The notes under the pieces are model-generated. The model was not told where the DNA came from and ran no database searches. It was given only the letters and a program-made list of their open reading frames with translations. The translations under genes and the position numbers were made by a program. A stretch of 64,000 nucleotides of DNA, taken from assembly GCA_018820315.1 (NCBI GenBank), contig JAHJOQ010000073.1, forward strand, positions 13,343-77,342, written 5' to 3'. Positions 1,651 through 11,749 of this stretch are shown one piece after another (the stretch's first letter is position 1; every line of letters starts with the position of its first letter). This stretch comes from Candidatus Zixiibacteriota bacterium. Lineage in GTDB: Bacteria > Zixibacteria > MSB-5A5 > JAABVY01 > JAHJOQ01.

Positions 1651-1837
1651 TCGGAGCAGTTTCCCAGACAATTCCGTTCCCAATTCATCCGGAGAACTGG
1701 AATATGTAGACCCGCTTTTCCGGAATAATCGACGTGTACGGGAACATACTCGAAGAATGGACCGTATATATCTTTGGAAGTTGCGCAATTTGGCTTGACA
1801 ATTTGCGATTAGTTCGTATATTACTTGTCTGTCGAGG

Positions 1838-3403
1838 ATGGAGGTGGTTCACTTGCGCGAGAATAAAAGTGTCACCCGGTGGGGGCTTTTTTTTGTTTCA
1901 CTGGCATTAACAGCAATAATCTTCGCTGCCATAGGCTTTGGGGTTTCCAATGTCGTGAGCGTGCGGCGCGATGTAGATCATTCTCTTCCTGCGCCTCAGG
2001 TGACTTATACACAGGCGGTTTCGCTCCCTCCCACGCCGATTACTCAGAGTGGGGAGAGCCCATTCGTTGCGGTGGTCGAGAAGTCTTATGACGCTGTCGT
2101 GAATATCTCCTCCAACCGGCGAGTGCAGTCTCGTTATCACGAAATGTATGACGATTTTTGGCGCCGTTTCTTCAAGATGCCGGACAGAGAGCAGGTAATC
2201 CCTTCATTCGGGTCCGGATTCGTTGTTCGCGACGATGGGTACATTGTCACCAACAATCATGTTGTCGACGGCGGGGAAGATATCACTGTCACTCTATCGG
2301 ACAAGAGCACACACAAGGCGACAGTTGTCGGCGCAGACCAGCCGACTGACCTCGCAGTTTTGAAGATCGAAACCAATAGAAGGCTTCAGACGGTAGAATT
2401 CGGAAATTCATCTGATATGAGGGTGGGTGACTGGGTCCTTGCTATCGGGAATCCTTTCCCATCTCTCGGACTCGATCGAACGGTTACCGTCGGAGTGGTT
2501 TCGGGCAAGGGCAGATCGCAGCTCTCCTTTGGATCGGAGACGCCAATTTATCAGGACTATATACAGACCGACGCATCCATCAACCCGGGTAACTCCGGCG
2601 GGCCGCTGATCAATCTGGAAGGCAAAGTGGTCGGCGTCAATTCCGCGATAGCTTCGCCGAGCGGTGGTTCTGTAGGTATCGGATTTGCAATTCCTTCCGA
2701 CCTGGCTAAGCAGATTGTCTCGGAGATAATAACCGAAGGCAAGGTTGCTCGAGGGTATCTTGGGGTGCTGCCGAGAAATCTCACGACCGATGAGGCGGAG
2801 ATGGTCGGTCTCGATCGGCTCATGGGAGTTTATATTGACGAAGTGACTCCCGGTTCTCCTGCTGCGGTTGGTGGCCTGAGAAATGACGATGTCATATCGA
2901 CATTCAATGGGCAGGAGATCAATGGTGAACAGGATTTTCGCTTGAGAGTCGCCGCCGCCAAGAATGGAGAAGAAGTTAAGCTTGGGATCATAAGACGGGG
3001 CAAGCAGCAGCAGGTGACGGTTGTCCTCGCCGATCGAGAAGCTGCTCTTGCTGACTACACTCCCGCAACACCGAGTACGGGCAATAAGCCGGCGGAATCT
3101 GAGAACGTTTCATCGAACTGGCTTGGGATGACAGTCGCCGATTGCAGTCAAGAGCTTGCATACAGCATGGGTGTGGATTATCATGAGGGTGCAATAGTCG
3201 TTTCGGTGGACGGCAGGTCGCCTGCCGATGTCAAAGGAGTTGTTCCCGGGACAATCATCGTTGAGATCGACTACGTACCAGTAAAAGGGAAGGACGACTT
3301 TGAGAAAGTCGCAAAAGACATTGGAAATAGAGATAGGGCTATAGCATTTCATGTTTTTGATGTGACTGGCCGGATAGGCTATGTTGCCATAAAACCGCAA
3401 TAA
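1838..3403 (+). CDS. degP: DegP/HtrA-family periplasmic serine endoprotease with C-terminal PDZ domain(s)
   Basis: N-terminal hydrophobic anchor. Trypsin-like catalytic triad motifs: TNNHVV (His), DLAVLKI (Asp), GNSGGPL (Ser). PDZ-like region follows (YLGV...EVTPGSPAA). Confidence 0.9.
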   Translation: MEVVHLRENKSVTRWGLFFVSLALTAIIFAAIGFGVSNVVSVRRDVDHSLPAPQVTYTQAVSLPPTPITQSGESPFVAVVEKSYDAVVNISSNRRVQSRYHEMYDDFWRRFFKMPDREQVIPSFGSGFVVRDDGYIVTNNHVVDGGEDITVTLSDKSTHKATVVGADQPTDLAVLKIETNRRLQTVEFGNSSDMRVGDWVLAIGNPFPSLGLDRTVTVGVVSGKGRSQLSFGSETPIYQDYIQTDASINPGNSGGPLINLEGKVVGVNSAIASPSGGSVGIGFAIPSDLAKQIVSEIITEGKVARGYLGVLPRNLTTDEAEMVGLDRLMGVYIDEVTPGSPAAVGGLRNDDVISTFNGQEINGEQDFRLRVAAAKNGEEVKLGIIRRGKQQQVTVVLADREAALADYTPATPSTGNKPAESENVSSNWLGMTVADCSQELAYSMGVDYHEGAIVVSVDGRSPADVKGVVPGTIIVEIDYVPVKGKDDFEKVAKDIGNRDRAIAFHVFDVTGRIGYVAIKPQ

Positions 3404-3459: not shown

Positions 3460-4314
3460 TTGCCAAGGCAATCGAGAAAATATCGCGACGAAGATAGGTC
3501 ACTTGACCTTTATCTTCGCGAAATCGGTGAGACTCCTCTTTTGAAACCAGAGGAAGAGGTAGAACTGGCTTGCAGGATCCACGATGGAGATCAGGCAGCA
3601 CTTGAGCAACTTACCAAGGCGAACTTGCGTTTTGTTGTCTCAGTAGCCAAACAGTATCAGAATCAGGGTTTGTCACTGGCCGATTTAATTAATGAAGGCA
3701 ATATTGGCCTTATCAAAGCGGCAAAGAGATTTGACGAGACCCGTGGATTCAAGTTCATCTCCTATGCGGTGTGGTGGATCAGACAGGCTATCTTGCAGGC
3801 TCTTGCTGAGCAGTCAAGAATAGTACGGCTTCCTCTTAATCGCGTGGGAACTCTGCACAAAATCGGTAAGATTTCGAGCTCGCTCGAACAGACATATGGC
3901 AGAGAGCCCTCGCCGGACGAAATAGCGGAAGAGTTAGAGCTGACTACGGCGGAAGTTTCCGATACGCTCAAGATATCGAACACGCATTTATCGCTCGACG
4001 CTCCTTTCTCTTCTTCTGAGGATAACAGTCTCATCGATGTTCTGGAGGATGAATTTCAGCCTGCCCCAGACGAAGCTCTGCTCCAGCATTCTCTGAAGCT
4101 CGAAATCGAGAAAGCGCTGGAAACACTCACGCCGCGCGAGGCAGAGGTTATCAATCTTTATTTCGGGTTGAGCCATGAAAAAGCTCTGACTCTGGAAGAG
4201 ATTGGAGCCCGTTTCGCGTTGACTCGTGAAAGAGTCCGGCAGATCAAGGAAAAGGCAATTCGCAGGCTTAGGCACGCCTCCAGGTCGAGATCTCTGAGAG
4301 CATACCTCAGCTAA
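3460..4314 (+). CDS. Sigma-70 family RNA polymerase sigma factor (RpoD/RpoS-like; regions 1.2, 2, 3 and 4 present; no long region 1.1)
   Basis: TTG start with GGGAGGAAGG RBS. Region 2 motifs [17 protein letters not shown] and [13 protein letters not shown] are present. Region 4 HTH is [20 protein letters not shown]. At 284 aa it is too short for a typical primary sigma. Confidence 0.85.
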
Positions 4315-4341
4315 ACAAGATTAAGGTACCTAATTAGAAGA

Positions 4342-4375
4342 AGAGGGAAGGCAGAACGCCTTCCCTCTCTTAGTT
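4342..4375. terminator. Bidirectional Rho-independent terminator between convergent genes
   Basis: Perfect 11 bp stem AGAGGGAAGGC / GCCTTCCCTCT with 5 nt loop, followed by CTCTTAGTTT. Lies between the stop of the sigma gene (+) and the stop of the DUF4097 gene (-). Confidence 0.6.
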
Positions 4376-4417
4376 TCCGCAAGCTTCGGATAGATTCAAA
4401 TTCGAAAACTTTGCTGA

Positions 4418-5284
4418 TCACCTCACGTCGATGTTTGCCGAGCCCATTCCAACCTGTAGAGTAATCTCAAGATGCCCTTCTGCATCATCCCAGTTCCTTG
4501 ACTCATAGAAGTCGCGCTCAATCTCCTCGAAATGCCTCTTCGGGATATCAATCGAGGAGAGAAATGTGTCCTCGGCATAGATTCTCACGCCAATGTGCTC
4601 CGGTACGATTATATTTACCGATCCCAATCCGACAGAAATGTCCGCTTCTGCATCGAAATCGAACTTGCCGGAGAAATCGATGTCAGAGGATCCGACGCCA
4701 CCTTTGAACTTGAGCATTCCGAAACGCGCATTTCCGAGTTCTTCGAGCGTGACCGAACTCGCTCCGGCATCCACCACAATTCTGTCCAGTTCGCAACCAT
4801 TCAGCTCTTCGAAGCTGATGTTGCAGTCCGCAGCCCCGATATCGAGCCAGAGGCGTCTCACTGACAGTCCTCCGAGTCGCATTTCACAGGATGCGGCACC
4901 AATATCGACTTTAAACTCAATGGGGATACGGTCGGTTAATCCTAATCTCCATTCATTGTCAACATCCCGGTCATGCCAGTTGCCGCTCTCGGCAGAAATG
5001 TCAAAATACAGCCGCCCTTCGCGTTTATTCTTGCGGTAATCGTAATCGTACTCGAATCGCTCGTCCTCGTAATCACCTTCAAGGCGAAATGCCTTGTCTG
5101 GATCACAGGCGTCGATGAAAAGCTCACCCAAGCCGAAATCAATCTCAATATCGAGCGCCTCTTCATCAGTGAGGACAACTTCTTTCTCCTCCGTCACCAT
5201 TTCGCCTATGGCTGATGATGCGAACAGGAACGCAGCAATCAGCGTCGAAAATGTGAGAGCAGTTCTGTTTCCAGTCATGATCAA
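4418..5284 (-). CDS. DUF4097/DUF2154 'toast-rack' (LiaG-like putative adhesin) domain protein with N-terminal signal peptide
   Basis: Signal peptide MIMTGNRTALTFSTLIAAFLFASSA. Repeated beta-strand units of the form VDIGAASCEM / LDIGAADCNI / VDAGASSVTL / GGVGSSDIDF are typical of the DUF4097 repeating fold. The start overlaps the upstream membrane-protein gene by 4 nt. Confidence 0.6.
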   Translation of the reverse strand: MIMTGNRTALTFSTLIAAFLFASSAIGEMVTEEKEVVLTDEEALDIEIDFGLGELFIDACDPDKAFRLEGDYEDERFEYDYDYRKNKREGRLYFDISAESGNWHDRDVDNEWRLGLTDRIPIEFKVDIGAASCEMRLGGLSVRRLWLDIGAADCNISFEELNGCELDRIVVDAGASSVTLEELGNARFGMLKFKGGVGSSDIDFSGKFDFDAEADISVGLGSVNIIVPEHIGVRIYAEDTFLSSIDIPKRHFEEIERDFYESRNWDDAEGHLEITLQVGMGSANIDVR

Positions 5285-6576
5285 TTCTCCTGCACAGCGT
5301 CGGGCAAGACTGTCTCGTCGCCGCCCAAGCCACCGTTACGCGTCGAATCGCTGCTTCCGGCGCAGTTGCCTATGTCTTTGGGGCGAGTCCCAAATCGCGA
5401 GAACCAGATTGCTCCATATCCGATACAGAGCACAGCTGCAACTACGGCTGTGCCGAATCCAAAGAAAATACCAGAGGCAACTTCAGCCCCTGTCACCTGG
5501 AAGAACCCGGAAATGAGCCACAGCAACATGAAAGCAATGACTCCCATTATCATAGTCATGAATCTGGATGTGAACCTGAGACTGCCGGAGGTTTTTCCGA
5601 GTCGCTGGCCAATATAGTGCGCAGTCCCTACCGTCCCCAGTATGGTTGCGCCTACTATCGCAAATGGATATATCAACACGGCTACCGGAATGCCAACAAT
5701 AGTGATGCAGAGTAGCACAAAGAAGGGACCTATTCCGAGAACCAGGAGAAAGCCCACCAGCAGGTTCTTTGCGGCACCTCTTTCAATCTGATACTTGATG
5801 CGCTCCACAGGCCTGCGGAATATCACCATGACCAGGAATGAGAAGACTACAATATAGAGCGCCACCATGAACCAAGTGAAAAGTCCCGGCAGACCTATGT
5901 CACCGCCGGACGGGAACGGGAAATATTTGGGGTCGAACTTCTTGAATCGTCCCTGGACTTCCGCACCCGGGTCTTTCTGAATCCTCTTTGCAACAACATC
6001 GCCTGTCACAATCGCGTTTGGTCCCAGAGTGACTGACCCGGTAGAGAATATCGTACCATCGATCACGCCATCGACTGTTACATTTCCGCCGACACAAACA
6101 ACGTCACCGTCCACTTCATCATCGTATGCTATGTAGACATCGCCGAATTCAACGATAGGCGGCTTTCCACTTCCGGGTTGTGGTGCGTCATATGGTGGAT
6201 CGTAGTCGAGTTCGTCTTGAGGCGGTTGAAAAACATACTCGTTGCCATCTACGTCGGTTGCGCGGATGCCATCATCGTCGATACGGATTTCAACGAACTT
6301 CTTGCCCTCAAAATACAACTCGTCAAGAGCACCTGATTCGTCGAGAGCATCCAATTCGTCCAAAGCGTCGAGGGCCTCCTGTCGCTGGAGTTCTTCTAGC
6401 TCCTGCGCCTTCTCAGACTGATCTCTCGCCTTGTCAAGAGACTCCGACTGATCAAGTTCCTGAAGGATAGAATCGATTTCTTCGACATCGGGAGCGGGCG
6501 GCGGTTCAGGTGGCGCCGGCAGTCCGACCGGGACCAGAACAGCCATAATCAGCAGTATGAGGAGCGCACGGGTCAA
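5281..6576 (-). CDS. Membrane protein: signal/anchor, acidic coiled-coil segment, bactofilin-like (COG1664 polymer-forming) beta-helix segment, C-terminal polytopic (about 5 TM) domain; candidate ECF anti-sigma/sensor partner
   Basis: N-terminal hydrophobic segment MTRALLILLIMAVLVPVGL followed by a Pro-rich stretch. EELQRQEALDALDELDALDE coiled-coil. GDVVCVGGNVTVDGVIDGTIFSTGSVTLGPNAIVTGDVVAK resembles bactofilin/CcmA beta-helix repeats. Several long hydrophobic helices follow in the C-terminal 200 aa. Lies in an operon between an ECF sigma and the DUF4097 gene. Confidence 0.5.
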   Translation of the reverse strand: MTRALLILLIMAVLVPVGLPAPPEPPPAPDVEEIDSILQELDQSESLDKARDQSEKAQELEELQRQEALDALDELDALDESGALDELYFEGKKFVEIRIDDDGIRATDVDGNEYVFQPPQDELDYDPPYDAPQPGSGKPPIVEFGDVYIAYDDEVDGDVVCVGGNVTVDGVIDGTIFSTGSVTLGPNAIVTGDVVAKRIQKDPGAEVQGRFKKFDPKYFPFPSGGDIGLPGLFTWFMVALYIVVFSFLVMVIFRRPVERIKYQIERGAAKNLLVGFLLVLGIGPFFVLLCITIVGIPVAVLIYPFAIVGATILGTVGTAHYIGQRLGKTSGSLRFTSRFMTMIMGVIAFMLLWLISGFFQVTGAEVASGIFFGFGTAVVAAVLCIGYGAIWFSRFGTRPKDIGNCAGSSDSTRNGGLGGDETVLPDAVQEN

Positions 6577-6701
6577 GATTACCTCTGCTTTTCGTCCAGT
6601 TCAGAGCTGGAACTTAAGTCTGAGTTGACAAATTGGAGATTGGCTACGACTTGCCAGGGAAGATTAGACAATGTTAATGTTTTCTTGCACATGGCTTTGT
6701 C

Positions 6702-7286
6702 CTACCGAATCGACTTGAGCTTCTTCTTCAGCAGCTCTCGCGCTCTGAATATTCGTGCCTTGACTGTCCCGACAGGTGTACCAAGTATATCGGCGATCTC
6801 TTCATACGACTTGTCGTCCCTGTGCCTGTAGATGATAACCTCCCGATACTTGTCCGGCAGTGAATCAATAGCCTCGTCAATGGACTGGAGCTTCTGCTTT
6901 CGAACCAGGTTTCGCTCCGGGTCCCATGTCCGGTCGGGCAACTCGAATTCTACCTGACCATCCTTGGTTTGGATTGGCCTGTCAAGCGACAACGCCTCAA
7001 TCCGTTTCTTCCGCACGAAGTCTATTGCACAGTTGGCGGCGATTTTGTACAGCCACGTCGAGAATCGGTATTCGGAGCGATATGAAGCAAGTGCATTGAA
7101 GGCCTTCATGAAGGTCTCCTGCACAAGATCCTGCGCTTCATCCTGATTCCTGACGATCTTCGTGACTACATGGAATATCGCCTTTCTGTGTCTGACCAAA
7201 AGGGACTCATAGGCTTTCTGATCGCCCTCAAGAGCCCTGGCAATCAGAAGATCGTCTTGAACCTGCTTTTCTGGTCCCTCTGCCAT
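6702..7286 (-). CDS. ECF-subfamily RNA polymerase sigma factor (sigma-70 regions 2 and 4)
   Basis: Region 2 motif DLVQETFMKAFNALASYRSEYRFSTWLYKIAANCAIDFVRKKR. Region 4 HTH motif SYEEIADILGTPVGTVKARIFRARELLKK. 194 aa. Confidence 0.9.
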   Translation of the reverse strand: MAEGPEKQVQDDLLIARALEGDQKAYESLLVRHRKAIFHVVTKIVRNQDEAQDLVQETFMKAFNALASYRSEYRFSTWLYKIAANCAIDFVRKKRIEALSLDRPIQTKDGQVEFELPDRTWDPERNLVRKQKLQSIDEAIDSLPDKYREVIIYRHRDDKSYEEIADILGTPVGTVKARIFRARELLKKKLKSIR

Positions 7287-7289
7287 GAA

Positions 7290-7315
7290 CTTACGATTCC
7301 CGTAGCACTATGTTT
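7290..7315 (-). promoter_or_regulatory. Candidate ECF (sigmaW-type) autoregulatory promoter TGAAAC-N16-CGTA abutting the ECF sigma start codon (implies leaderless or very short leader)
   Basis: On the minus strand the sequence TGAAACatagtgctacgggaatCGTAagtATG ends at the ATG of the ECF sigma gene. This is an exact match to the B. subtilis sigmaW-type consensus TGAAAC-N16-CGTA. No RBS is present, consistent with a leaderless transcript. Confidence 0.4.
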
Positions 7316-7761
7316 CACAAATTCAAGCTGTAAAATAGATTGCATCACCACAAAATACAAACAAAATCTGTTTCTCACCTGTTAGCCTCGATCTGACCGC
7401 TCTGTTTCAATCCTCAACTGATGGTCTTGAATGTGATTAGCTCGCTGCATCGCATTTGGATCGGTTTGAGGCTCACATTTTCAGTGTCTGATCGAGCAAG
7501 GCTTGCCATGACGATAGTTATGGTCGATGTTCCAGACTCTTAGCGAGTAGTGAGGCCGTCCGGTCCGGTGAGGCGCGACGGGCTGAGACAATTTGATGGG
7601 CGCGAGCGTCGAATGACGTCTCGATCTCAATGCACTCGATGCCAGGAGAAGGCCGGGAATACGCCACTATGTTGATAAAATCCCATTATTTATGGATAGA
7701 AACCACTTCGAAGACCAAGTCTTTCGGCAACCATTCGGATCGTCTTGTGCGCATGTGGGTA

Positions 7762-7787
7762 TAACATATTGTCTTGCAATATGTTAC
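7762..7787. promoter_or_regulatory. Perfect 10 bp inverted repeat (TAACATATTG-N6-CAATATGTTA) in a long intergenic region; candidate operator/regulator binding site or RNA hairpin
   Basis: Read directly from sequence: TAACATATTG tcttgc CAATATGTTA. AT-rich and dyad-symmetric, inside a roughly 900 bp non-coding stretch between two divergently organised gene groups. Confidence 0.35.
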
Positions 7788-7931
7788 TGTACTGCGCGAT
7801 TGATCGGATTTTGAGCAGCTTTGCGGCAATCCTCTTGCTCAATACCTGTGAGAGGTCAATTATCGAAATGCAAAACCGATAAATCTGTTAGGGACTTTGC
7901 CCTGACAGAACGGCTGGAAGGGTGAAGTAAA

Positions 7932-8072
7932 ATGGGCAAGGGAAGAAAAGACACATTCAAGCTGCCAAAGAAGACATTTTGGCATTTGTACAGTCTTCAG
8001 GGTCTCGAATCTGAGAAGTTTGTCAAAGTGGTGAACAAGATCCTGAAAAAAGAGTTTACACTGATTAAGTAA
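7932..8072 (+). CDS. Small ORF (46 aa), very lysine-rich basic peptide; hypothetical
   Basis: ATG preceded by GGAAGGGTGA. Translation is MGKGRKDTFKLPKKTFWHLYSLQGLESEKFVKVVNKILKKEFTLIK. It falls below the ORF-track length cutoff and no homolog is recognisable by eye. Confidence 0.25.
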   Translation: MGKGRKDTFKLPKKTFWHLYSLQGLESEKFVKVVNKILKKEFTLIK

Positions 8073-8185
8073 CAAAAGGCCGTTTTGGCGGCAAGTCGGC
8101 AGCTTGTTTCGGCGTTAGGAAGTCCTTTGGGAAGCGACGGGGCTTGCTAAAATGCCCTCAGGGATGAAGGTAGTCGAAATATTTC

Positions 8186-8214
8186 TTGACAAAACAGTTC
8201 AACACTGATAACAT
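8186..8214 (+). promoter_or_regulatory. Sigma-70-like promoter (TTGACA-17-TAACAT) upstream of the M23 peptidase gene
   Basis: TTGACA at 8186-8191, a 17 nt spacer, then TAACAT at 8209-8214. The GAGGA RBS and ATG at 8250 follow. Confidence 0.5.
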
Positions 8215-8249
8215 GCACGGAAATTTTGGCCGTGGTAGAGGACGCGCGA

Positions 8250-9179
8250 ATGCAACGTAGGAAATACACCATACTTGTCATCCCCAATGGGAAGGGCAAG
8301 TCTTACCGTTTCTCGGTCGATTCAGTTATCCTGACATCACTCGCAGCATTCTCGATAATATTCGCCGCGTTCACTTTCTTCTTCTCGTACGATTATTTCT
8401 TCGAACAATTTGACAAGAGCAAGCTGGCACATCTTCAGTCAGAAAAAGTACTCTTGTGCAATAAAATAGATGGCATGAGCAGCACGATCATCGATCTGCA
8501 GGATAGCTATGAGAACATTGTCGATAAAGAAAAGGCTATCCGCGCGATATTCGATTTGCCAGATATCGACCCGCAGGAAAGACAGCTCGGTATCGGTGGT
8601 CCGGAACTGTTCGATTACACAGATAAGAGCGACGCGGAAATGCTGGCGTACCAGACCGAATCAGAAATCGATGAGCTGGTACGGCTCTCGACTTTTGAGA
8701 CGCAGCAGTTCAAAGCAATTTATGAGAAACTTCTGGATAAGAAGGATGACCTGGATCACATGCCGTCGATCATGCCATGTGCCGGTTATCTCACGCGCGG
8801 GTACGGAATCAAGAAGCATCCCATTTCCGGTTTCAAGAGTCTGCACGCAGGTCTCGACATCGCCAATCGCACGGGGACTCCGGTGTATGCTACCGCCAGC
8901 GGTGTTGTCTCGTCAGTCGGCAACAATGGACGGCTCGGGAAGACAGTCGTGATTGATCACGGCAACGGCATCAAGACGAAATATGGCCATCTCAATAAAT
9001 ACACTGTCAAGAAGGGCACGAAAGTCAACCGTGGCGACAAGATCGCCGAGATGGGAAGCACCGGTTATTCCACCGGCACTCACCTGCACTACGAAGTACA
9101 ACTCAACGGCCAGTCGGTCAATCCTCAGAAATTTGTTCTGTCACCCGAGATGGTGAACGAGCATTCTTCGGTTTACTAG
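8250..9179 (+). CDS. M23/LytM-family murein endopeptidase with N-terminal membrane anchor and coiled-coil region (EnvC/MepM-like)
   Basis: M23 catalytic motifs HAGLDIA and GSTGYSTGTHLHYEV. TM helix ILTSLAAFSIIFAAFTFFF. The likely start is ATG at 8250 (GAGGA RBS); an alternative upstream ATG is at 8226. Confidence 0.85.
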   Translation: MQRRKYTILVIPNGKGKSYRFSVDSVILTSLAAFSIIFAAFTFFFSYDYFFEQFDKSKLAHLQSEKVLLCNKIDGMSSTIIDLQDSYENIVDKEKAIRAIFDLPDIDPQERQLGIGGPELFDYTDKSDAEMLAYQTESEIDELVRLSTFETQQFKAIYEKLLDKKDDLDHMPSIMPCAGYLTRGYGIKKHPISGFKSLHAGLDIANRTGTPVYATASGVVSSVGNNGRLGKTVVIDHGNGIKTKYGHLNKYTVKKGTKVNRGDKIAEMGSTGYSTGTHLHYEVQLNGQSVNPQKFVLSPEMVNEHSSVY

Positions 9180-9342: not shown

Positions 9343-10707
9343 TTACCACGGTGGATCGCAGTTAATGACCGGTTCAAATCCACTCGAAAATATGTATGCT
9401 ATTAGATATACGACGTCGTCGATGTCAACCGTATTGCTGGCATCTGCATCGGCGCAACAGGTAATCGGGACTGGTGGCCATCCGCCTGAGAAAATATACG
9501 CGATTAGATAGACCACGTCGTCGATATCGACAAATCCGCTACCGTCAGCGTCACCCGGAACGCACCACTGCCCACTTGCACCACATTCGATGCCGTTGGC
9601 AAATGTCCAGTGTCCTCCCTTGTCGATAAGCTCCTGCAGTTCATACAGTCCGTCAAGGCGGGACGCGAGCACCATACAGGTCACCGTGCATTCTCCCGGT
9701 TCAAGTTCAACATCCTGAGCGATGATATAGAATGAACTCAGGTTTTCTATTGAGTCTGGGTCACCTGCTACGAATCCCGCGTGCGTAGCCATGAAGGTGC
9801 CTATCTCGGCAGGCGTATACCCGTTGTTTGGATCAACCCAGTTGTCGTTTTCAAGAACGGCTGCACCTGCGATATAATCGACATCGGCTGCTGCCTTGAT
9901 CTCCCAGGGACCGAATCCTGCACCACAACTGTAATTCTCCGTCGGTGATCCGATCGGACCGAACTGATAGACTTCGTTTCTCCATGGGTCTGCACCGGAT
10001 CTGTTATTCACTCCGCCAGCGCCATCCGGGATATCCCAGTCGATACCTTCTCCCAGATGTATCCTCACAGTCGTGTCAGCATTGTTGCAGACCTCGATTC
10101 GCTGGACCATAACGCACGTGTCGGGATGCATGGGAATGTAATACTCGATACCACCGACAACAACTGTGTCAGGTGTAGCCCATTGACAGCTGGCCTGTGT
10201 GTAAGTTGGTGTATGAGTAACTGCCAACACACTCATCGGGATCAGGCTGACTTCGCTGTCTGAACCATCATACATCGAGAACCATGTTGTGCTGGGATCA
10301 TTAGCATAGCTGATCACCAAACTCTGGTCAAACAACATAGACTCGCCTATGTCATACCAGTATAAGTTCCCTTCCTCTGACAGATATCCTGTCCCTGTCC
10401 GCGTATGGTTCCAGACCGCTATGGACCAGCAGAATGTTCCCAGGAGTTCGTACTCTGGAACACTGAAGCTGCTCGAATACTCTTTTACATAGCCTCCTTT
10501 GATCACTTCCGATGAATCTGCGAGCTTCTGCAGACTGAGCGCTTTCGACTTCGACAAGCCCTCATCAGCCAGGAGGCCCCAGAGCATCGTCAGGGCTGCG
10601 GCTATACAGATGCTGGTGCCCTTATGTACCACTTGATCCTCCTTCAATACGATATCGCCCGTACCGGAACAATCCGATCGTACTGTGCTACACTGATTGG
10701 ATATCAA
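9343..10707 (-). CDS. Secreted hypothetical protein with C-terminal tandem dockerin-like (EF-hand-type Ca-binding) repeats
   Basis: Putative signal peptide near the N-terminus (GTSICIAAALTMLWGLLA). The C-terminus carries two near-identical 21-22 aa segments, DADGSGFVDIDDVVYLIAYIF and DADASNTVDIDDVVYLIAYIF. Both have Asp/Ser at loop positions 1,3,5,9,12 followed by a hydrophobic helix, which is the hallmark of dockerin repeats. The remainder has no recognisable catalytic motif. Confidence 0.55.
   Translation of the reverse strand: MISNQCSTVRSDCSGTGDIVLKEDQVVHKGTSICIAAALTMLWGLLADEGLSKSKALSLQKLADSSEVIKGGYVKEYSSSFSVPEYELLGTFCWSIAVWNHTRTGTGYLSEEGNLYWYDIGESMLFDQSLVISYANDPSTTWFSMYDGSDSEVSLIPMSVLAVTHTPTYTQASCQWATPDTVVVGGIEYYIPMHPDTCVMVQRIEVCNNADTTVRIHLGEGIDWDIPDGAGGVNNRSGADPWRNEVYQFGPIGSPTENYSCGAGFGPWEIKAAADVDYIAGAAVLENDNWVDPNNGYTPAEIGTFMATHAGFVAGDPDSIENLSSFYIIAQDVELEPGECTVTCMVLASRLDGLYELQELIDKGGHWTFANGIECGASGQWCVPGDADGSGFVDIDDVVYLIAYIFSGGWPPVPITCCADADASNTVDIDDVVYLIAYIFSSGFEPVINCDPPW
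9377..9529 (-). repeat. Imperfect direct DNA repeat (about 43 nt x2, about 85% identity, about 110 nt period) encoding the two dockerin-like segments
   Basis: GAAAATATGTATGCTATTAGATATACGACGTCGTCGATGTCAAC (9377-9419) versus GAGAAAATATACGCGATTAGATAGACCACGTCGTCGATATCGAC (9487-9529). Confidence 0.6.
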
Positions 10708-10964: not shown

Positions 10965-11041
10965 GCAGTTCTAGAAAGTGAAGGCTGTTTTGCCCGCGAA
11001 TGGACTCACTTGCGGGCAGCAAGAAAGTCAGGTGTATAAGA

Positions 11042-11749
11042 ATGAATAGGAATGCGCCAGAATCGGAAGCTGGGAGGACTGCTGCGATCTCCGAACAGGG
11101 TTCGGCAAAGCAGGGTCAGACCCCGACAAATGGCGCACGGAACACGAAGGATAACAGTGAAGAGGAGACCTTGCACCTGATCGGACTCGTCAAGGCTGGA
11201 GACAACCGGGCGTTCGGAGAGCTTGTGAATCGTTATCAATCTCAGGTCGCCAACATCGCCTATCGGATGGTAAACGATTATGACGACGCCAAGGATGTTA
11301 GTCAATTGGTGTTTGTCAAGACCGCCGATAATATCAACAGCTACGATCCCTCCAAGAGGTTCTCGACATGGCTTTACAGAATTACAGTGAATGCGTCGAT
11401 CGACTATATTCGCAAGCACAGACGTCACAATCATGAACATCTCGACAATTACGCAGACTCGCTGGAAAACCTCGATGCATCTCCGGCTCAGGTCTATCAG
11501 ATGAAGCATCTCCGCTTCGCGATTCTGAAAGCCGCTGATCGACTGAATGCGAAGCAGCGAGCGGCCTTTATTCTGAAAGATATGGAGGGGCACGAGGTGA
11601 GCGAGGTGGCTGAGATACTCAACATGCCGGAAGCGACCGTGCGTTGGTATATCCACCGGGCAAGACTTAGGTTGAGACGTGAATTAAAAGGGCAGTATTC
11701 TCTTCGAACGTTCGGAAGCGAGATGGTGAACAGCCTCATTAGAAATTGA
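11042..11749 (+). CDS. ECF-subfamily RNA polymerase sigma factor with low-complexity N-terminal extension
   Basis: Region 2 motif FGELVNRYQSQVANIAYRMVNDYDDAKDVSQLVFVKT...FSTWLYRITVNASIDYIRKHRR. Region 4 HTH motif VSEVAEILNMPEATVRWYIHRARLRLRREL. The ORF opens at 11000; the ATG at 11042 has a better RBS (AGGTG). No anti-sigma gene is evident downstream. Confidence 0.85.
   Translation: MNRNAPESEAGRTAAISEQGSAKQGQTPTNGARNTKDNSEEETLHLIGLVKAGDNRAFGELVNRYQSQVANIAYRMVNDYDDAKDVSQLVFVKTADNINSYDPSKRFSTWLYRITVNASIDYIRKHRRHNHEHLDNYADSLENLDASPAQVYQMKHLRFAILKAADRLNAKQRAAFILKDMEGHEVSEVAEILNMPEATVRWYIHRARLRLRRELKGQYSLRTFGSEMVNSLIRN

What the first reader, a model, noticed from the sequence alone, without database searches (positions are those of the whole stretch)
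4418..7315. ECF sigma / bactofilin-like polytopic membrane protein / toast-rack (DUF4097) triad with a sigmaW-type promoter fused to the start codon
The operon architecture resembles cell-envelope-stress modules (LiaF/LiaG-like toast-rack domains). The middle protein is unusual: it combines a secretion/anchor signal, an acidic coiled-coil, a bactofilin-type beta-helix and a C-terminal five-TM bundle. It has no zinc-finger anti-sigma domain. The exact TGAAAC-N16-CGTA motif ending 3 nt before the ATG implies a leaderless, autoregulated transcript.
Basis: partly seen in the sequence, partly recalled or inferred. Interest (0 to 1): 0.5.

Follow-up and report, generated by a model that had tools for sequence, protein, structure and literature searches.

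The report
Zixibacterial ECF sigma envelope-sensing operon
This is one copy of an operon conserved across Zixibacteria, encoding an alternative sigma factor, a membrane protein with a bactofilin-like domain facing outside the cell and a secreted "toast-rack" protein; it has no recognisable anti-sigma factor, and its self-recognised promoter probably starts transcription just after the start codon, so the transcript is unlikely to be leaderless.

Summary
The three genes are real. They lie on the minus strand: ECF sigma 7286..6702, a 431-aa membrane protein 6576..5281, and a toast-rack protein 5284..4418.

- The third protein is DUF2154/LiaF-C-type, not DUF4097.
- CGTA ends 5 nt, not 3 nt, before the ATG.
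- The triad is derived. Most relatives (33 versus 8 loci) carry a secreted DUF4097 gene between sigma and the membrane protein. The window keeps only a 37-codon deletion scar of it.

GAAAC-N16/17-CGTA lies upstream of sigma in 67 of 91 related loci, so the promoter is genuine. In most loci the start codon lies 14-25 nt after CGTA. Published ECF open-complex structures put the TSS about 11 nt after CGTA, which is nt 6 of this ORF. The leaderless reading is therefore disfavoured.

A conserved sigma70-type promoter (TTGTAT-N17-TATTTT) lies upstream and would supply the ATG-containing mRNA.

The membrane protein belongs to DUF8173, a large uncharacterised family that sits next to ECF sigma genes in several phyla. 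Its regulatory role is inferred, not shown.

The parts
7355..7360 (-). P1 -35 hexamer TTGTAT of a predicted sigma70-type promoter
   Evidence: TTGnnn-N16-18-TAT(T/C/A)(T/A)T, ending 12-16 nt upstream of GAAAC, is present in 52 of 64 non-redundant loci while the spacer sequence varies. The sequence was read.
7332..7337 (-). P1 -10 hexamer TATTTT. The predicted P1 TSS is about 7325-7323, giving a leader of roughly 38 nt that contains P2.
   Evidence: The TSS is inferred from standard sigma70 geometry. The leader shows no significant RNA structure (z 0.33).
7312..7317 (-). P2 -35 element TGAAAC (ECF, sigmaW/sigmaE-type)
   Evidence: It is conserved in 67 of 91 loci.
7292..7295 (-). P2 -10 element CGTA, 16 nt after the -35 element and 5 nt before the ATG
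   Evidence: The fourth base is A in 67 of 67 loci.
7280..7283 (-). Predicted P2 transcription start window (mode A7281, preceded by C7282). It lies inside the sigma ORF, 3-6 nt after the A of the ATG.
   Evidence: Inference from ECF RPo structures (PMC6372665; PMC6411747), the numbering in PMC5758882 and family geometry. It has not been measured.
6702..7286 (-). ECF sigma factor, 194 aa (sigma2 + sigma4). ATG 7286 is the only canonical in-frame start before codon 30.
6579..6692 (-). 37-codon remnant ORF, the deletion scar of the DUF4097 toast-rack gene present in most relatives
   Evidence: The sigma 3' end, TAG, SD and ATG align at 93% with the DUF4097 gene start of L008 and L103, and similarity stops after the ATG. 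Gene order across relatives is DUF4097-MID-TOAST in 33 loci and MID-TOAST in 8.
5281..6576 (-). DUF8173-family polytopic membrane protein, 431 aa, TTG start preceded by AGAGG
5938..6156 (-). Bactofilin-fold beta-helix (aa 141-213), predicted to be extracytoplasmic
5392..5883 (-). Five-TM bundle (aa 232-395) with a short cytoplasmic helix (aa 254-266) and the conserved cytoplasmic end motif RFGTRPK
   Evidence: AF2. Alignments A1-A3. No PDB fold match.
4418..5284 (-). Secreted toast-rack protein (Toast_rack_N + LiaF-like_C). The likely true start is ATG 5278 (AGGAG-N8-ATG), 2 nt after the stop of the upstream gene.
   Evidence: The signal peptide is and inspection.
4341..4369 (.). Bidirectional terminator hairpin (13-bp stem) that ends the operon and the convergent rpoD-like gene

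Best explanation
The locus is the Zixibacteria form of a widespread, uncharacterised ECF sigma module.

Shown:
- One operon encodes the sigma, a DUF8173 membrane protein and a secreted DUF2154-type toast-rack protein. The DUF8173 protein has a bactofilin-fold beta-helix after a signal peptide or anchor, followed by a conserved 5-TM bundle. The operon ends at a strong terminator.
- The window carries a derived three-gene version in which a second secreted toast-rack gene (DUF4097) has been deleted.
- Two conserved promoters lie in tandem upstream: a sigma70-type P1 and an ECF-type P2 (TGAAAC-N16-CGTA).

Inferred:
- The sigma recognises P2, so the family is autoregulated.
- All the beta-helical domains face the periplasm. 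There they form the sensory part of an envelope-signalling complex anchored by the DUF8173 TM bundle. That bundle, through its short conserved cytoplasmic elements or an unidentified partner, restrains or modulates the sigma in place of a classical anti-sigma factor.
- In this clade the start codon has moved to 5 nt after CGTA, inside P2's discriminator. P2 transcripts should therefore begin at about 7281 and lack the AUG. Sigma would then be translated from P1 transcripts, and P2 would mainly raise expression of the downstream membrane and toast-rack genes. This is feedback on the regulators rather than a leaderless positive loop.
For: - Domains.
- Conserved block: M23 peptidase | sigma-[DUF4097]-DUF8173-toast-rack | rpoD-like-htrA in about 50 Zixibacteria-type loci.
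- DUF8173 homologues sit directly downstream of an ECF sigma in Gemmatimonadota and Acidobacteriota MAGs as well, overlapping by 4 nt a small uncharacterised membrane protein in two of the three loci.
- P2 is conserved in 67 of 91 loci, with an invariant A as the fourth base of CGTA.
- P1 is conserved in 52 of 64 loci.
- Five distinct close-clade genomes share CGTA-N5-ATG although their spacers differ.
- Elsewhere the start codon lies 14-25 nt after CGTA, with SD-like tracts at +10 to +14.
- The GGGA of window codons 3-4 sits at the same offset (+14 to +17) as the SD GGGA of L017-type loci.
- Sister locus L102 has ATA in place of the ATG and a perfect GGAGG at +11 to +15.
- TSS geometry comes from PMC6372665, PMC6411747 and PMC5758882.
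- The deletion scar is shown.
- The organism uses SD sequences and classical sigma70 promoters.
Against: - No evidence of any kind shows that the DUF8173 protein binds or controls the sigma. Its cytoplasmic surface is small: a loop of about 20 aa, a loop of about 16 aa and an unconserved tail of about 35 aa.
- In other phyla a separate small membrane protein sits between sigma and DUF8173. This suggests that DUF8173 is an accessory protein rather than the anti-sigma.
- The DUF4097 gene is dispensable.
- Topology and TSS positions are predictions only.
- If P2 transcripts lack the AUG, it is odd that P2 stays perfectly conserved directly in front of sigma, unless it serves the downstream genes.
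- No other P2-like site exists in the 64 kb window beyond chance, so no regulon is visible.
Confidence: 0.45

Rival explanations
1. One reading: P2 initiates at the A of ATG 7286 and produces a leaderless, positively autoregulated sigma mRNA.
For: - CGTA-N5-ATG is retained in five distinct close-clade genomes.
- The ATG is the only canonical start before codon 30.
- The ATG has no well-placed SD; GGGA ends 12 nt upstream.
- Codon 2 varies at the wobble position (GCA/GCG), which is consistent with coding.
Against: - A TSS at A7286 leaves only 1 nt between the -10 element (-12 to -7 equivalent) and +1. Scaffolds with 4-7 nt function, and 6 nt is optimal (PMC6372665).
- The relative with true leaderless geometry, L065, has CGTA-N10-ATG.
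- Sister locus L102 has ATA at this position together with a strong SD downstream.
- The conserved upstream P1 can supply ATG-containing mRNA.
Confidence: 0.15
2. The downstream genes are effectors rather than regulators. In this model the DUF8173 and toast-rack proteins are envelope-stabilising or scaffolding proteins that form the sigma's small regulon, and the sigma is controlled elsewhere, by a trans-encoded anti-sigma or by transcription alone.
For: - No anti-sigma domain is detected in any operon protein.
- All globular domains are predicted to be extracytoplasmic.
- The DUF4097 gene has been lost independently in the window and in L001.
- From my own knowledge, toast-rack and PspC genes such as yvlB belong to the B. 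subtilis sigmaW regulon. Toast-rack partners of stress systems are reviewed in PMC11237479.
Against: - The DUF8173 gene sits directly after the sigma or its small partner gene across at least three phyla, with overlapping stop and start codons. This arrangement is typical of cognate regulators.
- An autoregulated ECF sigma with no negative regulator would tend to lock on.
Confidence: 0.3
3. A periplasmic version of the bactofilin-M23 peptidase partnership. In this model the beta-helix of the membrane protein organises or regulates the divergently encoded M23 (LytM) peptidase for peptidoglycan remodelling, under control of the sigma.
For: - The M23 gene is divergently adjacent to the sigma in nearly all Zixibacteria-type loci.
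- Bactofilins are known partners of M23 and Csd1-type hydrolases (PMC9507126 abstract; otherwise my own knowledge).
Against: - The synteny may simply be inherited within one phylum.
- It is not seen in the Gemmatimonadota or Acidobacteriota loci.
- The M23 gene has no P2-like promoter.
- Known bactofilins act in the cytoplasm.
Confidence: 0.1

Closest known systems
Bacillus subtilis sigmaW-RsiW
   Same: - The sigma's best NCBIfam hit is the SigW model.
- The promoter matches the sigmaW signature TGAAAC-N16-CGTA, in which CGTA confers sigmaW selectivity (PMC5758882).
- The promoter lies upstream of its own gene, implying autoregulation.
   Different: - The score is below the SigW equivalog cut-off (165.6 against 209).
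- There is no RsiW-like zf-HC2 anti-sigma.
- The partner genes are a DUF8173 membrane protein and toast-rack proteins.
- A sigma70-type promoter lies in tandem upstream.
- The organism is a Zixibacterium (FCB group).
E. coli sigmaE-RseA-RseB with DegS
   Same: - An RpoE-like ECF sigma is co-transcribed with envelope-located partners.
- An HtrA-family PDZ protease gene is a conserved neighbour.
   Different: - There is no RseA- or RseB-like protein.
- The htrA gene is in a separate convergent unit with its own consensus sigma70 promoter.
- Regulated proteolysis is not demonstrated.
LiaF / VraT / YvlB toast-rack proteins of cell-envelope stress systems
   Same: The third protein has the toast-rack fold (PF17115 and PF09922; 4QRK 3e-15). 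This is the same fold family as the LiaF C-terminal domain (PMC11237479).
   Different: - There is no LiaI-LiaF-TM domain and no LiaSR-type two-component system nearby.
- The protein starts with a Sec-type signal and is predicted to be periplasmic. PMC11237479 argues that Toastrack domains are intracellular.
Cytoskeletal bactofilins (BacA 2N3D, Thermus bactofilin 6RIA)
   Different: - Here the domain is embedded in a 431-aa membrane protein between a signal peptide and a 5-TM bundle.
- It is predicted to face the periplasm.
- Polymerisation is untested.
Pfam DUF8173 (PF26514) family
   Same: Homologues at 27-39% identity carry precomputed PF26514 hits and share the conserved beta-helix plus TM bundle, including the motifs ITIIGIPVA and RFGTRPK.
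   Different: - The family has no known function and no literature in the searched library.
- The window's clade adds an acidic coiled-coil region.

Membership tests
ECF (group 4) sigma-70 factors | Only sigma2 and sigma4 domains, about 190 aa | tested here: met
   PF04542 at 65.5 bits and PF08281 at 68.3 bits. TIGR02937 sigma70-ECF at 120.9 bits against a cut-off of 42.9.
ECF (group 4) sigma-70 factors | Cognate promoter with AAC in the -35 element and CGT in the -10 element upstream of its own gene | tested here: met
   TGAAAC-N16-CGTA at 7317..7292. It is conserved in 67 of 91 homologous loci. Recognition by this sigma is inferred.
ECF (group 4) sigma-70 factors | Co-transcribed anti-sigma factor with an anti-sigma domain (typical, not universal) | tested here: not met
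   No ASD, zf-HC2 or RskA hit in any operon protein. No HxxxCxxC ORF in the window. Both downstream proteins begin with signal peptides.
SigW equivalog (NCBIfam NF007223 / TIGR02948) | Score at or above the curated cut-off | tested here: not met
   165.6 bits against 209, and 143.7 bits against 243.1.
Bactofilin (PF04519) | Bactofilin beta-helix domain | tested here: met
Bactofilin (PF04519) | Cytoplasmic, polymer-forming cytoskeletal protein | tested here: inconclusive
   The predicted topology places the domain outside the cytoplasm (signal peptide, positive-inside rule). Polymerisation cannot be tested with these tools.
DUF8173 (PF26514) | Match to the family model | tested here: inconclusive
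   The model appears to be absent from the local Pfam copy: P0020 and P0037 carry a precomputed PF26514 hit but gave none. Membership rests on homology. P0019 (39% identity) and P0020-P0050 (27-31% identity, E down to 1e-32) carry precomputed PF26514 hits.
Toast-rack (DUF2154 / LiaF-like C) | Toast_rack_N and LiaF-like_C domains | tested here: met
   PF17115 at 35.6 bits against 22. PF09922 at 30.7 bits against 29. 4QRK at 3.3e-15.
DUF4097 (PF13349) toast-rack | Match to PF13349 | tested here: not met
   No hit at E<=0.1 for the window protein. The genuine PF13349 gene of relatives (98 bits in L003) is deleted in the window.
LiaF proper | N-terminal LiaI-LiaF-TM domain and linkage to a LiaSR-type two-component system | tested here: not met
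   There is a single N-terminal hydrophobic segment. NF040535 LiaF_C_term scores 26.9 bits against a cut-off of 57. The neighbours within about 4 kb are htrA, an rpoD-like gene, M23 and a sigma; no kinase or regulator is among them.
Leaderless mRNA | Transcription start coincides with the first base of the start codon | not testable with these tools
   No RNA data are available. Published ECF promoter geometry predicts a TSS 3-6 nt downstream of the A of the ATG.

The most novel reading that the evidence does not exclude
DUF8173 proteins, present in thousands of clusters in uncultured bacteria, could be a new class of ECF sigma regulator that lacks any anti-sigma domain. In this reading they sense the envelope through a periplasmic bactofilin-like beta-helix that assembles with secreted toast-rack proteins. 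In this Zixibacteria clade the sigma start codon has also migrated into the discriminator of the sigma's own promoter. Sigma-dependent transcripts would then omit the sigma AUG and express only the regulators, which rewires positive autoregulation into pure negative feedback.
Probability: 0.15. Interest if true: 0.7.

Novelty: new variant of a known kind. Interest (0 to 1): 0.42.

Why it matters
- ECF sigma factors are a major class of bacterial signal transduction, and their logic usually depends on a recognisable anti-sigma factor. This phylum-wide module has none. It pairs the sigma with DUF8173, a large family of unknown function, and with toast-rack proteins that are predicted to be exported, although the literature argues such domains are intracellular.
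- If the membrane protein controls the sigma, that would define a new regulator type and give DUF8173 its first function.
- The promoter analysis is a caution for sequence-only calls of leaderless genes. An ECF -10 element must lie about 10 nt, not 3-5 nt, upstream of the ATG.
- The analysis also raises a testable oddity: a conserved autoregulatory promoter whose predicted transcript lacks the sigma start codon.

Tried and rejected
- The 37-aa ORF in the sigma-membrane gene gap was considered as a hidden mini anti-sigma. It was rejected because it is not conserved in L001 and its start aligns with the DUF4097 gene start of relatives, so it is a deletion scar.
- A search for zf-HC2-like ORFs, or for homologues of the ~170-aa membrane protein found in other phyla, gave nothing in the window.
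- Annotating that ~170-aa family as an anti-sigma failed. It has no Pfam hit, no PDB hit and 318 homologues that are all "hypothetical". Its resemblance to an anti-sigma domain rests only on my reading of its N-terminal motif.
- A search for further P2 sites to define a regulon in the window returned chance-level hits only.
- Rfam on 4300-8300 found nothing meaningful.
- An RNA fold of the P1 leader was not different from shuffled sequences.
- A weak NCBIfam GlpG rhomboid hit (17 bits) on the TM bundle was dismissed, because no polar residue is conserved in the alignments.
- The sigma70-like match TTTACA-N16-CATAGT at 7334..7307 is not conserved in relatives.
- Literature searches for bactofilin or DUF583 with ECF or anti-sigma, for DUF4097 with ECF, and for DUF8173 found nothing relevant. 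The main text of the ECF reclassification paper mentions none of these domains, and its supplements are not held.
- The wide alignment A1 was too divergent for the search for related loci.
Full report
**What is there**

The region holds three co-oriented ORFs on the minus strand:
- an ECF sigma (7286..6702, 194 aa);
- a 431-aa protein (6576..5281, TTG start preceded by AGAGG);
- a 288-aa protein (5284..4418), whose more likely start is ATG 5278 behind AGGAG-N8.

Pfam and NCBIfam results:
- The sigma has Sigma70_r2 and r4_2. Its best models are SigW/RpoE-type, below the equivalog cut-offs.
- The middle protein matches Bactofilin PF04519 at 37.2 bits against a cut-off of 27.9.
- The third protein matches Toast_rack_N and LiaF-like_C. 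It also hits the toast-rack structure 4QRK at 3e-15, but it does not match DUF4097.

A 13-bp hairpin at 4341-4369 terminates the operon and the convergent rpoD-like gene.

The closest database protein is 98% identical and comes from a Candidatus Zixiibacteriota MAG.

**The middle protein**

An AlphaFold2 model built from 88 homologues has mean pLDDT 80.7. It shows:
- an N-terminal hydrophobic helix;
- a long acidic helix (aa 44-79);
- a small beta unit (aa 94-116);
- a beta-helix (aa 141-213, pLDDT >94);
- five TM helices plus a short cytoplasmic helix (aa 232-395, pLDDT >93);
- a disordered tail.

The beta-helix is bactofilin-fold:
- Foldseek gives the same top hits.
- A family profile finds the same two chains by sequence.

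The TM bundle matches nothing solved. It has no conserved polar residue; only Gly, Pro and aliphatic positions are conserved, plus a cytoplasmic RFGTRPK motif.

The signal peptide and the positive-inside rule place the beta-helix outside the cytoplasm (inference). No anti-sigma signature is present.

The family corresponds to Pfam DUF8173, based on precomputed hits on homologues. It is large: 3,241 clusters at 50% identity with E<1e-30. It has no literature in the searched library.

**Conservation and history of the operon**

Loci recovered through the membrane protein and through the sigma share a conserved block in Zixibacteria-type MAGs. The block runs: M23 peptidase (divergent), sigma, optional DUF4097, DUF8173, toast-rack, then a convergent rpoD-like gene and htrA.

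Among loci with enough downstream sequence:

| Gene order after sigma | Loci |
|---|---|
| DUF4097-DUF8173-toast-rack | 33 |
| DUF8173-toast-rack | 8 |
| DUF4097-DUF8173 | 6 |

The DUF4097 protein also starts with a cleavable-looking signal peptide, not an anti-sigma domain.

In the window, the 125-nt gap between the sigma and the membrane gene is a deletion scar. The end of the sigma gene, its TAG, the SD and an ATG (6692) align at 93% with the start of the DUF4097 gene in L008 and L103. Similarity then stops, which leaves a 37-codon remnant ORF. L001 lost the gene independently. So the "triad" is a reduced form, and the DUF4097 label belongs to the gene that is missing.

In Gemmatimonadota and Acidobacteriota MAGs, DUF8173 homologues again follow an ECF sigma. 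In these loci they come after a ~170-aa two-TM protein with a conserved cytoplasmic N-terminus, whose gene overlaps the DUF8173 gene by 4 nt in two of the three loci. That small protein family is itself wholly unannotated, and no homologue is present in the window.

**The promoters**

P2, TGAAAC-N16-CGTA, occurs once in the window (7317..7292; chance expectation 0.08).

It is genuine. Of 91 non-redundant homologous sigma loci, 67 carry GAAAC-N16/17-CGTA just upstream, and the fourth base is always A.

This CGTA-N5-ATG arrangement is shared by five distinct close-clade genomes whose spacers differ.

The arrangement does not imply a leaderless mRNA:
- The sigmaL open-complex structures number the ECF motif C-14 G-13 T-12. 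They find 4-7 nt spacers after the -10 element functional, with 6 nt optimal (PMC6372665).
- The sigmaH complex (PMC6411747) and the B. subtilis numbering (PMC5758882) agree.
- The TSS should therefore be the 9th-12th nt after CGTA, which is 7283-7280. The best candidate is A7281 after C7282, inside codon 2.

In the rest of the family:
- The start codon lies 14-25 nt after CGTA (mode 21-22).
- SD-like tracts peak at +10 to +14.
- The window's GAGGGA (codons 3-4) occupies exactly that offset.
- Sister locus L102 has ATA in place of the ATG, GGAGG at +11 to +15 and CTG at +24.
- L101 retains a TTG at +24.
- L065 shows what true leaderless geometry looks like: CGTA-N10-ATG.

The window has no canonical in-frame start after the ATG until codon 30.

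The ATG-containing message most likely comes from P1, a second conserved promoter. P1 reads TTGTAT (7360..7355)-N17-TATTTT (7337..7332). A motif of this type ends 12-16 nt upstream of GAAAC in 52 of 64 loci while its spacer varies.

The organism clearly uses classical sigma70 promoters (htrA has TTGACA-N16-TATATT) and SD sequences.

P2 transcripts would then lack the sigma AUG and would mainly express the downstream genes. This is a prediction that needs 5' end mapping.

**Mechanism**

Shown:
- the domain content;
- the operon structure;
- conservation of the two promoters;
- the association of DUF8173 with ECF sigma genes in several phyla;
- the absence of a recognisable anti-sigma domain.

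Inferred:
- The beta-helical proteins are periplasmic and form a sensory assembly on the DUF8173 membrane bundle.
- That assembly modulates the sigma.

I give this 0.45.

Rivals:
- The downstream genes are effectors, and the anti-sigma is elsewhere or absent (0.3).
- The leaderless model holds (0.15).
- There is a periplasmic bactofilin-M23 peptidase partnership (0.1).

**Comparison with known systems and novelty**

The system works like sigmaW/sigmaE-type envelope-stress modules and uses the toast-rack fold known from LiaF, VraT and YvlB. It fails the membership tests for SigW, LiaF, DUF4097 and class I anti-sigma partnership. Its bactofilin domain is in a non-cytoskeletal context.

The predicted export of the toast-rack proteins contrasts with the intracellular location argued in PMC11237479.

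I rate it a new variant of a known kind, of moderate interest. The strongest open points are what restrains this sigma and where P2 actually starts.

Noticed in passing
window 7932..8072 (+): An unannotated 46-aa basic ORF (MGKGRKDTFKLPKKTFWHLYSLQGLESEKFVKVVNKILKKEFTLIK) lies just upstream of the M23 peptidase gene. It is conserved at 57-83% identity in 40 related loci at the same position and strand. It has no Pfam hit.
   Followed up: partly
window 1795..1822 (+): The htrA/degP-like gene (1838..3403) has a near-consensus sigma70 promoter, TTGACA-N16-TATATT, and a GAGG SD. This shows that the Zixibacterium uses classical promoters, not the Bacteroidetes type.
   Followed up: yes
window 11000..11749 (+): A second, longer ECF-like sigma (249 aa; Sigma70_ECF and weak PhyR_sigma-like hits) is conserved in synteny beside the M23 gene in L001, L007, L009-L011 and L014.
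   Followed up: partly
window 3460..4314 (+): A 284-aa rpoD-like sigma (regions 1.2, 2, 3 and 4) is convergent with the operon. It is conserved together with htrA in nearly all related loci.
   Followed up: no
window 9343..10707 (-): A 454-aa protein ends in two dockerin/EF-hand-like repeats (DADGSGFVDIDDVVYLIAYIFSGG). The Pfam Dockerin_1 match is only marginal.
   Followed up: partly
L065 (about 3,970-4,020, upstream of the sigma gene): One relative has CGTA-N10-ATG, the geometry expected for a genuinely leaderless ECF-driven sigma transcript.
   Followed up: no
L102:1806-1880: The sister lineage of the window's clade has ATA where the window has ATG. It also has a perfect GGAGG at +11 to +15 and CTG at +24 after CGTA. 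The gene caller ran the ORF back through the promoter to give a spurious 251-aa sigma.
   Followed up: partly
L005:4901-5413, L019:4433-4963, L020:4501-5004: A ~170-aa two-TM protein family with a conserved cytoplasmic N-terminus (LxRWLxxE...F..RV) lies between an ECF sigma and DUF8173 in Gemmatimonadota and Acidobacteriota. It has 318 homologues, all "hypothetical", with no Pfam or PDB match. It is a candidate for an unrecognised anti-sigma family.
   Followed up: partly
L001:4381-5218: Three tandem EutN/CcmL (microcompartment vertex) genes are inserted between the M23 gene and the sigma in one relative.
   Followed up: no
L020:9147-9470: A stand-alone 107-aa bactofilin gene lies about 3 kb from the sigma-DUF8173 operon in an Acidobacteriota-type contig.
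   Followed up: no
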